The notes under the pieces were generated by a model. The model searched no databases. It was not told where the DNA came from and saw nothing but the letters and a program-made list of their open reading frames with translations. A stretch of 64,000 nucleotides of DNA, taken from a virus (Duplodnaviria > Heunggongvirae > Uroviricota > Caudoviricetes). Below are positions 20,995 through 21,013 of the stretch, in pieces. The DNA lies in IMG/VR virus record IMGVR_UViG_3300029516_000004, positions 31,480 through 95,479 of that record. The stretch is one strand, 5' to 3'. A program made the translations under genes and the position numbers. Position 1 is the first letter of the stretch. The number at the start of each line of letters is the position of its first letter.

Positions 20995-21013
20995 AAATGA
21001 CTAGCAGTAGAAT
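20995..21013 (+). promoter_or_regulatory. putative late promoter (TGACTA-N4-TAGAAT)
   Basis: AAATGACTAgcagTAGAAT; same architecture at 52780-52798 and 40237-40263. Confidence 0.45.

What the first reader, a model, noticed from the sequence alone, without database searches (positions are those of the whole stretch)
20995..21013. Recurrent late-promoter architecture (TGACT-A/T, 4 nt, TA-G/A-AAT) at three operon heads
AAATGACTAgcagTAGAAT (20995-21013), AAATGACTActcgTAGAAT (52780-52798) and AAGTGACTTtcaaTAAAAT (40245-40263, within a perfect palindrome AAAGTCA-N5-TGACTTT) share an identical layout directly upstream of virion-gene operons. This is consistent with promoters activated by the phage late activator (lpa at 5286-5738). 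The hsdM promoter region (7811-7830) ends with the same TAGAATCACC as the first site but lacks the TGACT element, so it may be a constitutive look-alike.
Basis: seen in the sequence. Interest (0 to 1): 0.35.

Follow-up and report, generated by a model that had tools for sequence, protein, structure and literature searches.

The report
Known phage P1 late promoters
The three look-alike sequences are the already described late promoters LP26, LP23 and LPsit of phage P1, which the phage activator Lpa switches on to make tail and head proteins, so the finding is correct but not new.

Summary
The window is a P1-type phage-plasmid, 95-99% identical to P1 and in reverse orientation. They coincide base for base with late promoters LP26, LP23 and LPsit in the curated P1 record AF234172. 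The pattern occurs 3 times against 0.03 expected.

The layout is a 9-bp '-22 box' (consensus AAGTNACTT, usually preceded by RAC), 4 nt, then a -10 hexamer, with no -35. The lpa gene (5286-5738, minus strand) is 100% identical to P1 lpa.

A matrix built only from four P1 late promoters outside the window recovers the three sites. In Cronobacter phage JK004 (Lpa 67% identical) the motif sits before eight orthologous operons.

The hsdM look-alike shares only the -10 plus 4 nt and scores -2 bits.

Verdict: observation confirmed, interpretation supported, already known.

Side observations:
- Hairpins at LPsit and LP23 would mask the first gene's ribosome-binding site only in read-through transcripts.
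- An unannotated strong motif match lies inside gene 7.
- Phage D6 uses a different box.

The parts
20995..21013 (+). Late promoter LP26: -22 box AAATGACTA 20995-21003, spacer GCAG, -10 TAGAAT 21008-21013. It heads the operon 26-25-7-24-6-5.
   Evidence: Equals AF234172 78485-78503 'late promoter LP26'. Scores 17.7 bits with a matrix built without it. Box invariant in 76 related loci.
40245..40263 (+). Late promoter LP23: -22 box AAGTGACTT (perfect palindrome), spacer TCAA, -10 TAAAAT. It heads the operon 23-22-21-...
   Evidence: Equals AF234172 58825-58843 'predicted late promoter LP23'. Scores 24.5 bits. Kept before the gene 23 ortholog of JK004.
52780..52798 (+). Late promoter LPsit: -22 box AAATGACTA, spacer CTCG, -10 TAGAAT. 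It heads the operon pmgC-tub-pmgB-sit-...
   Evidence: Equals AF234172 46608-46626 'late promoter LPsit'. Scores 13.8 bits with the independent matrix and 23.0 with the full matrix. Homology to P1 starts at 52778.
61337..61355 (+).
   Evidence: Ortholog of AF234172 38318-38336. Top hit of the independent matrix at 24.8 bits. Lies between gene 16 and R.
5236..5254 (-). Late promoter LPpac, ATGTGACTT-TCGT-TACCCT, between lpa and pacA.
   Evidence: Ortholog of AF234172 90475-90493. Scores 22.6 bits. Conserved in relatives whose Lpa is 67-68% identical.
20985..21003 (-). Position of P1's annotated divergent late promoter LPpmgL, which shares the LP26 box. In the window it reads TAGTCATTT-GTTG-AACATT. 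Weakly supported.
   Evidence: Annotated. Leave-one-out score -5.9 and -4.1 in the window. Its -10 is the most variable spot of the region in 76 loci.
20954..20970 (.). C1 repressor operator O26 (Op82), ATTGCACTAATAATTTT, in the 26/pmgL divergent control region.
   Evidence: Maps to AF234172 78528-78544. Sequence read.
5286..5738 (-). lpa (gene 10), the late promoter activator, 150 aa.
   Evidence: ORF listed. Pfam PF25716 BPP1_LPA, E 3e-57. 150/150 identical to P1 Lpa.
52789..52823 (+). Hairpin overlapping LPsit. The 5' arm CTCGTAGAATCGGGT contains the -10. The 3' arm ACCAGATTCTACGAG runs into the GAGG ribosome-binding site of pmgC. Not annotated in P1.
   Evidence: Found. Free energy -22 kcal/mol, z -5.85. 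13 pairs, 1 compensatory, none broken in 8 sequences. RNA starting at 52805 leaves the site free.
40264..40309 (+). LP23 leader helix. CTCTTCC directly after the -10 pairs with GGAAGAG, the ribosome-binding site of gene 23.
   Evidence: Free energy -14.7 kcal/mol, z -2.2. The JK004 clade has GTCCT...AGGAC at the same places.
22697..22718 (+). Unannotated late-promoter-like site AAC-AAGTGACTG-GTGA-TAACCT inside codons 16-23 of gene 7. Function unproven.
   Evidence: 22.1 bits, above every null simulation (largest 19.6). Identical in P1 at 76780-76801 and the best non-annotated hit there. Not annotated in P1 or P7. The JK004 equivalent scores 7.6 bits.

Best explanation
The three sequences are the phage P1 late promoters LP26, LP23 and LPsit, carried by a P1-type phage-plasmid.

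Each promoter consists of:
- a sigma-70-type -10 hexamer (TAnnnT);
- a 4-nt spacer;
- a 9-bp '-22 box' (consensus AAGTNACTT, usually preceded by A/G-A-C) in the place where a -35 hexamer would be.

From the P1 literature, host RNA polymerase cannot use these promoters alone. The phage protein Lpa (gp10) recognises the box. Together with the host RNA-polymerase-associated protein SspA, it activates transcription of head, tail, lysis and packaging operons. In the P1 record, lpa itself is controlled by the C1 repressor, so the late promoters fire only after repression is lifted.

Shown here:
- identity of the sites with the annotated promoters;
- an intact lpa gene;
- statistical enrichment of the motif;
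- absence of a -35;
- positional conservation in diverged relatives.

Inferred from the literature: Lpa binding, the SspA requirement and timing.
For: Identity with annotated promoters:
- The window matches P1 at 95-99% identity in reverse orientation.
- The three sites equal the annotated LP26, LP23 and LPsit base for base.
- AF234172 lists 11 late promoters with the same layout of 9-bp box, 4 nt and -10.

Motif statistics:
- A matrix from the four P1 late promoters outside the window (LPmat, LPpro, LPlyz, LPdar) ranks LPs, LP23, LPpac and LP26 at 17.7-24.8 bits.
- LPsit scores only 13.8 bits, within the null range.
- Null maxima average 14.4 bits and the largest is 19.6.
- No sigma-70-type -35/-10 pair is detected at any of the three sites.

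Activator: Lpa is 100% identical to P1 Lpa and belongs to Pfam BPP1_LPA.

Conservation:
- In 76 close relatives the LP26 box is invariant while the spacer has 4 variants.
- In Cronobacter phage JK004 (Lpa 67% identical) the best matrix hits lie directly before orthologs of 23, R, mat, 26, pacA, prt, lyz and pmgC.
- Box plus -10 are 77/90 identical between the window and JK004. The ungapped flanks are 134/360 identical.
- In D6 (Lpa 31% identical) the P1 box is absent from operon heads and another box takes its place.

Literature:
- 11 late promoters with a 9-bp inverted repeat as the Lpa site (PMC10695390).
- Lpa as a sequence-specific activator acting with SspA (PMC1891329).
- Late genes depend on Lpa (PMC8198154 and PMC8201110).
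Against:
- LP23 is labelled only 'predicted' in the P1 record.
- LP26 and LPsit carry an imperfect palindrome (AAATGACTA), so dyad symmetry is not strict.
- LPsit scores only 13.8 bits with the independent matrix, within the null range.
- The JK004 sites were found with a P1-derived matrix, so identity inside the motif is partly inflated by how they were chosen. Their positions before orthologous genes are the independent part of that evidence.
Confidence: 0.93

Rival explanations
1. The sites are ordinary constitutive or early sigma-70 promoters, or mere -10 look-alikes. On this reading the shared TGACT element is incidental.
For: The -10 hexamers TAGAAT and TAAAAT are good sigma-70 -10 elements. 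The P1 record also predicts sigma-70 promoters overlapping or near LP23 and LPsit.
Against: No -35 partner is found at any site. The box is invariant in 76 relatives while the spacer varies. The box is kept in front of eight orthologous operons in JK004, where the flanks have diverged. The pattern occurs 3 times against 0.03 expected.
Confidence: 0.03
2. The functional unit is the larger palindrome seen at LP23 (GAAAGTCA-N5-TGACTTTC). It would be an operator for a dimeric repressor rather than an activator site.
For: There is a perfect 8+8 inverted repeat at 40235-40255. The arm core GTCA..TGAC is kept in JK004.
Against: No comparable palindrome exists at LP26 or LPsit, nor at the other P1 late promoters. 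The outer arm bases are not kept in all relatives: JK004, L186 and L189 have TTTGTCA or CTTGTCA, and L190 has TTTCCA. The part shared by all sites is the asymmetric RAC-AAGTGACTT.
Confidence: 0.03
3. The hsdM-proximal TAGAATCACC (7822-7831) is a member of the same promoter class or derives from LP26.
For: It shares a 10-mer with LP26: 2 occurrences against 0.14 expected.
Against: The box positions score -2.0 bits. The site lies in a non-P1 hsd cassette. One of 100 shuffles gives two copies of the 10-mer.
Confidence: 0.02

Closest known systems
Phage P1 late promoters (LPs/Ps, LPdar, LPlyz, LP26, LPsit, LP23, LPpac, LPmat, LPpro, LPhot, LPpmgL), activated by Lpa (gp10) with host SspA
   Same: Position, sequence, layout (9-bp -22 box, 4 nt, -10, no -35) and downstream operons are the same. 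The three sites are the orthologs of LP26, LP23 and LPsit.
   Different: Only trivial substitutions: the LP26 spacer is GCAG instead of GCGG, and the three bases before the LPsit box are CAC instead of AAC. LPhot is absent because an hsd cassette replaces that segment.
Late promoters of phage D6, a distant P1 relative
   Same: The architecture is the same: a conserved box just upstream of a -10 hexamer, no -35, at the heads of virion, lysis and dar operons. D6 has an Lpa homolog.
   Different: The box sequence and register differ: AAATCACA-N2-(C/G)T-N3-(T/C)AnnnT. The pattern was derived from these same sites. D6 Lpa is only 31% identical.
Activator-dependent late promoters of P2/P4 (Ogr, Delta) and Mu (protein C)
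   Same: From my own knowledge, these are sigma-70 holoenzyme promoters with a usable -10 and a poor -35. They need a small phage-encoded DNA-binding activator.
   Different: From my own knowledge, those activators are unrelated proteins that bind further upstream (about -55 for Ogr, about -30 to -55 for Mu C). They do not use SspA. P1's box is centred at about -22.
T4 late promoters (TATAAATA, gp55/gp33)
   Same: No -35 element; phage-encoded factor required; late virion genes (PMC3014915).
   Different: T4 replaces sigma-70 with gp55. P1 keeps sigma-70 and adds an activator bound next to the -10.
T4 genes e, soc, 49 and I-TevI: a late promoter placed inside a hairpin that masks the ribosome-binding site
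   Same: This applies to the side observation. At LPsit and LP23, and at LPdar in P1, the DNA for the 5' arm of a hairpin masking the ribosome-binding site lies at or just after the -10. Late transcripts would therefore lack that arm (precedent in PMC3014915).
   Different: This is not demonstrated for P1. The start sites and read-through transcripts were not measured here.

Membership tests
P1 Lpa-dependent late promoters | A sigma-70-like -10 hexamer (TAnnnT) | tested here: met
   TAGAAT, TAAAAT and TAGAAT. This is the same column pattern as the annotated P1 late promoters with the 4-nt spacing; LPmat (CAGAAT) and LPpmgL (AATATT) depart at the first base.
P1 Lpa-dependent late promoters | A 9-bp -22 box (AAGTNACTT-like) exactly 4 nt upstream of the -10 | tested here: met
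   LP23 matches 9/9. LP26 and LPsit match 7/9 (AAATGACTA). Spacing is 4 nt in all three.
P1 Lpa-dependent late promoters | No -35 hexamer at 16-18 nt from the -10 | tested here: met
   The sigma-70 consensus scans find no -35/-10 pair at any of the three sites.
P1 Lpa-dependent late promoters | Location at the head of a late operon (morphogenesis, lysis or packaging) | tested here: met
   The sites lie upstream of 26 (baseplate), 23 (major capsid) and pmgC-tub-sit (tail).
P1 Lpa-dependent late promoters | Orthology to promoters annotated in the reference genome | tested here: met
   Base-for-base coincidence with LP26, LP23 and LPsit of AF234172.
P1 Lpa-dependent late promoters | Cognate activator gene lpa present and intact | tested here: met
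   150/150 identical to P1 Lpa; Pfam PF25716.
P1 Lpa-dependent late promoters | Transcription depends on Lpa and host SspA and starts just downstream of the -10 | not testable with these tools
   This rests on the literature only (PMC10695390, PMC1891329). The primary papers (Guidolin 1989; Lehnherr 1991 and 1992; Lobocka 2004) are not held.
T4 gene e-type translational masking (side observation at LPsit and LP23) | A stable RNA helix that pairs the Shine-Dalgarno sequence of the first gene | tested here: met
   LPsit: -22 kcal/mol, z -5.85. LP23: -14.7 kcal/mol, z -2.2. These are predictions, not probing data.
T4 gene e-type translational masking (side observation at LPsit and LP23) | The late promoter lies in the DNA encoding the 5' arm, so late RNA lacks it | tested here: inconclusive
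   The 5' arms lie at -14..+5 (LPsit) and +1..+7 (LP23), counted from the last base of the -10. The conclusion needs mapped start sites, which are not available here.
T4 gene e-type translational masking (side observation at LPsit and LP23) | The helix is kept by compensatory change in relatives | tested here: inconclusive
   LPsit has 1 compensatory pair and none broken, from one divergence event. At LP23 both arms differ between the two clades and pairing is kept when read directly. The automatic alignment puts the window row out of register.
T4 gene e-type translational masking (side observation at LPsit and LP23) | Upstream-initiated transcripts read through into the gene and are poorly translated | not testable with these tools
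   There are co-oriented upstream genes (parA-parB; ORF 52295-52771) and no terminator-like site. Read-through itself is inferred.

The most novel reading that the evidence does not exclude
Some P1 late promoters are built into hairpins that mask the ribosome-binding site of the first virion or lysis gene. The cases are LPsit and LP23 in this window and LPdar in P1.

Transcripts reading through from co-oriented upstream genes would carry both arms and be translationally silent. Those upstream genes are active earlier or in the lysogen: par, the sim-region genes and lydC. Transcripts started at the late promoter begin inside or after the 5' arm and would be translated.

Lpa would then control both transcription and translatability, as is known for T4 genes e, soc, 49 and I-TevI.
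Probability: 0.3. Interest if true: 0.4.

Novelty: already known. Interest (0 to 1): 0.12.

Why it matters
The finding shows that a reader without tools recovered a real regulatory motif, but it adds nothing to P1 biology. The promoters, their box and their activator have been known since 1989-2004 and are annotated in the reference genome.

Three things have practical value:
- a corrected motif definition, RAC-AAGTNACTT-N4-TAnnnT;
- a complete list of the late promoters in this element;
- evidence that the motif can be used to annotate diverged P1-like phage-plasmids such as JK004, whereas D6-like elements need a different box.

If the hairpin observation holds, it would explain how P1 keeps capsid, tail and holin genes silent in the lysogen despite transcription entering from the par, sim and lydC genes.

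Tried and rejected
- **Primary papers not held.** Lobocka 2004 and Lehnherr 1991 could not be read. The consensus was therefore taken from the GenBank annotation and from secondary citations.
- **IMG/VR relatives found through gp26 and gp7 were too close.** They are 99-100% identical. They were useful only for a micro-footprint at LP26 and uninformative for the gene 7 site: 2/22 variable columns against 49/726 in the whole gene.
- **The genome-contig scan with PmgC gave only 6 loci.** The two diverged ones (Serratia, Pantoea) have pmgC fused into an upstream operon without an LPsit.
- **The P1 matrix on D6 found no operon-head sites.** It gave one isolated hit at 71093-71114. This led to the different D6 box.
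- **fold_alignment on LP23 leaders gave 0 compensatory pairs.** MAFFT placed a 1-nt length difference after the 3' arm. The covariation claim there rests on direct reading and is marked inconclusive.
- **A site at 5840-5861 was rejected.** It reads AAC-GAGTGACTT-GTGA-TAGCGC, scores 15.5 bits and lies upstream of the lpa promoter. I considered it as an Lpa autoregulation site, but it is within the null range, has a poor -10 and is intragenic.
- **Sites at 48889 and 35269 were rejected** for the same reason: scores within the null range.

Full report
**Observation.** Shuffles give 0.03 expected, and none of 100 reached three. Allowing one mismatch adds no further site. The palindrome at the second site is real and one base longer per arm than stated: GAAAGTCA / TGACTTTC at 40235-40242 and 40248-40255. 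The 10-mer TAGAATCACC occurs at 21008-21017 and 7822-7831. That is 2 matches against 0.14 expected, and one of 100 shuffles also gave two.

**What the window is.** Megablast places the window in the P1 family (Punavirus) at 95-99% identity. A whole-window comparison with AF234172 shows it is colinear with P1 in reverse orientation, from P1 926 across the record ends down to about 36337. Several segments are replaced. One replacement, window 7759-15016, is a type I hsd cassette. It substitutes for P1 84482-87970, which holds pmgT to humD and the late promoter LPhot.

**Identity of the sites.** In the curated P1 record the three sites are annotated features:
- 20995-21013 is 'late promoter LP26' (78485-78503), with its '-22 region' and '-10 signal'.
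- 40245-40263 is 'predicted late promoter LP23' (58825-58843).
- 52780-52798 is 'late promoter LPsit' (46608-46626).

The record annotates 11 late promoters in all: LPmat, LPpro, LPlyz, LPdar, LPs, LPsit, LP23, LP26, LPpmgL, LPhot and LPpac. Lined up, they share a 9-bp box with consensus AAGTNACTT, itself a palindrome. In nine of them the box is preceded by A/G-A-C or A/G-A-G. Four nucleotides follow (nine in LPhot), then a -10 hexamer that is TAnnnT in most; LPmat, LPpmgL and LPhot depart at the first base.

I built a matrix from only the four P1 late promoters that lie outside the window (LPmat, LPpro, LPlyz, LPdar). Scores in the window:

| Site | Coordinates | Score (bits) |
|---|---|---|
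| LPs | 61337-61355 + | 24.8 |
| LP23 | 40245-40263 + | 24.5 |
| LPpac | 5236-5254 - | 22.6 |
| unannotated site in gene 7 | 22697-22718 + | 22.1 |
| LP26 | 20995-21013 + | 17.7 |
| LPsit | 52780-52798 + | 13.8 |

In 60 first-order Markov simulations the best score averaged 14.4 bits and never exceeded 19.6. LPsit alone would not stand out with this small matrix. LPpmgL shares the LP26 box on the other strand and is the weakest annotated promoter:
- Its leave-one-out score is -5.9 bits.
- Its score in the window is -4.1 bits.
- Its -10 is the most variable spot of the region in 76 relatives.

**Absence of a -35, and the activator.** Consensus scans find no sigma-70-type -35/-10 pair at any of the three sites. 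The ORF at 5286-5738 on the minus strand is lpa. It is 150 aa, matches Pfam PF25716 (BPP1_LPA) at E 3e-57 and PHROG 1704 'Lpa-like transcriptional activator', and is 150/150 identical to P1 Lpa.

**Conservation.** In 76 IMG/VR loci with identical gp26, the segment CAACAAATGACTA is invariant. The -10 changes only to TATAAT or TAAAAT, once each. The 4-nt spacer has four variants. Two elements whose Lpa is 67-68% identical keep (A/G)ACGTGTGACTTGCGTTACCCT between lpa and pacA.

In Cronobacter phage JK004 (Lpa 67% identical, 54% G+C) the best hits of the P1-derived matrix lie directly before the orthologs of 23, R, mat, 26, pacA, prt, lyz and pmgC. For the five promoters shared with the window, box plus -10 are 77/90 identical. 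The ungapped flanks and spacers are 134/360 identical. The JK004 sites were chosen with the P1 matrix, so the within-motif identity is partly inflated by selection. Their positions before orthologous genes are the independent evidence.

In phage D6, whose Lpa is only 31% identical, the P1 box is absent from operon heads. Instead, eight operon heads carry AAATCACA-N2-(C/G)T-N3-(T/C)AnnnT. That is 8 exact matches against about 0.05 expected in D6, and none in the window. The pattern was derived from these same sites, so the enrichment is overstated. A different activator going with a different box fits the box being the activator's recognition site.

**Mechanism.**
- PMC10695390 states that P1 has 11 late promoters with a conserved 9-bp inverted repeat serving as the Lpa-binding site, and that lpa is essential.
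- PMC1891329, summarising Hansen et al. 2003, describes Lpa as a sequence-specific DNA-binding activator. It acts together with host SspA, which does not itself bind late promoter DNA.
- PMC8198154 and PMC8201110 describe Lpa-dependent late operons.
- Guidolin et al. 1989 first reported the homologous late promoter sequences of the tail-fibre and dar operons. I saw this only as a citation.
- In the P1 record, lpa is preceded by the C1 operator Olpa, and the 26/pmgL control region carries operator O26. O26 maps to window 20954-20970.

The best-supported model is therefore as follows. After C1 repression is lifted, Lpa is made and binds the -22 box. With SspA it lets the sigma-70 holoenzyme start at promoters that have a -10 but no -35. 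Everything beyond the sequence anatomy is inferred from the literature.

**The hsdM look-alike.** The 22-mer ending in TAGAAT at 7827 scores -2.0 bits and lies in the non-P1 hsd cassette. No sigma-70-type promoter is detected in 7600-7900. It is not a late promoter. Whether it is a promoter at all is untested.

**Side observation 1: hairpins that include the promoter.**

*LPsit.* A 15-nt inverted repeat pairs 52789-52803 (spacer, -10 and 5 nt) with 52809-52823, which runs into the GAGG ribosome-binding site of pmgC. As RNA it folds at -22 kcal/mol with z -5.85. In eight sequences from two clades all 13 pairs are kept. One is compensatory: the -10 change G to A is matched by C to U in the other arm.

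*LP23.* CTCTTCC directly after the -10 pairs with GGAAGAG, the ribosome-binding site of gene 23, at -14.7 kcal/mol with z -2.2. The JK004 clade has GTCCT and AGGAC at the corresponding places.

*LPdar in P1.* It shows CCTCCT/AGGAGG in the same arrangement.

*Late RNAs.* RNAs that begin about 7 nt after the -10 lack the 5' arm and leave the ribosome-binding site unpaired.

*Which promoters have hairpins.* The three hairpin-bearing promoters all follow co-oriented genes with no terminator-like site in between:
- parA-parB before LP23;
- an ORF of unknown function before LPsit;
- the early gene lydC before LPdar (PMC9025707).

Promoters with divergent upstream neighbours (LP26, LPpro, LPlyz) show no such hairpin.

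*Precedent and limits.* This is the arrangement documented for T4 genes e, soc, 49 and I-TevI (PMC3014915). It is unproven here. Start sites and read-through were not measured, covariation comes from a single divergence event, and the automatic alignment of LP23 leaders did not place the two clades in register.

**Side observation 2: a motif match inside gene 7.** AAC-AAGTGACTG-GTGA-TAACCT at 22697-22718 is identical in P1 (76780-76801). It outscores the annotated LPdar and is the best non-annotated hit in the P1 genome. It lies in codons 16-23 of gene 7 and is not annotated in P1 or P7. Variation among 79 relatives is too low to test constraint. The JK004 equivalent, CACAAATGACCGGTGATACGCT, scores only 7.6 bits. 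It could be an internal late promoter for genes 24-6-5, or a chance match kept by the coding sequence.

**Verdict.** The feature is already known and annotated, so interest is low. Three further late promoters in the window should be added to the list.

Noticed in passing
window 52789-52823 (+): A 15-nt inverted repeat overlaps LPsit. Its 5' arm contains the -10 hexamer and its 3' arm runs into the pmgC ribosome-binding site. Free energy is -22 kcal/mol, z -5.85. One compensatory pair and no broken pair across two clades. It would mask the site only in transcripts started upstream of LPsit. Not annotated in P1.
   Followed up: partly
window 40264-40309 (+); also P1 AF234172 about 31185-31211 (LPdar leader): CTCTTCC directly after the LP23 -10 pairs with the GGAAGAG ribosome-binding site of gene 23. 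The JK004 clade has GTCCT/AGGAC instead. P1 LPdar has CCTCCT/AGGAGG before lydA. All three promoters follow co-oriented upstream genes with no terminator-like site, which resembles T4 gene e control.
   Followed up: partly
window 22697-22718 (+): An unannotated late-promoter-like site, AACAAGTGACTGGTGATAACCT, lies inside the 5' end of gene 7. It scores 22.1 bits, above all null simulations, and is identical in P1. It is only weakly kept in JK004 (7.6 bits).
   Followed up: partly
L091+L092 (phage D6, MF356679), e.g. 19215, 25241, 27747, 38135, 45511, 54144, 67413, 72120: D6, whose Lpa is 31% identical to P1 Lpa, has no P1-type boxes at its operon heads. It carries AAATCACA-N2-(C/G)T-N3-(T/C)AnnnT at eight or more of them, so activator and box have changed together. 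I could not check this against the D6 genome paper, which is not held.
   Followed up: partly
window 20985-21003 (-): The position of P1's annotated divergent late promoter LPpmgL fits the late-promoter matrix badly (-4 to -6 bits). Its -10 is the most variable spot of the intergenic region in 76 relatives. Its status as a real promoter looks doubtful.
   Followed up: partly
window 7759-15016: A type I restriction-modification (hsd) cassette replaces P1 pmgT to humD, including LPhot. The junctions are the ones the P1 record flags as similar to the flanks of EcoDXXI/R124 hsd loci. Plasmid pMCR_SCKP-LL83 (PMC5786510) has the same layout.
   Followed up: partly
window 52778: Homology to P1 resumes 2 nt before the LPsit box. 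Upstream, P1's sim genes are replaced by other ORFs (PHROGs 3429 and 3933, function unknown). The mosaic junction therefore lies at the promoter's upstream edge.
   Followed up: no
window 5255-5285 (-): A G+C-rich hairpin followed by a T run (CCGGGCC...TTTT) lies between the lpa stop codon and the LPpac box. A longer version is present in diverged relatives (L086, L087). It is probably the lpa terminator.
   Followed up: no
L089 12017-12061 (JK004): The annotated start of the JK004 pmgC homolog (gene_12) appears to be 45 nt too far downstream. An in-frame ATG encoding MTPRQLLE, as in P1, follows the GAGG site.
   Followed up: no
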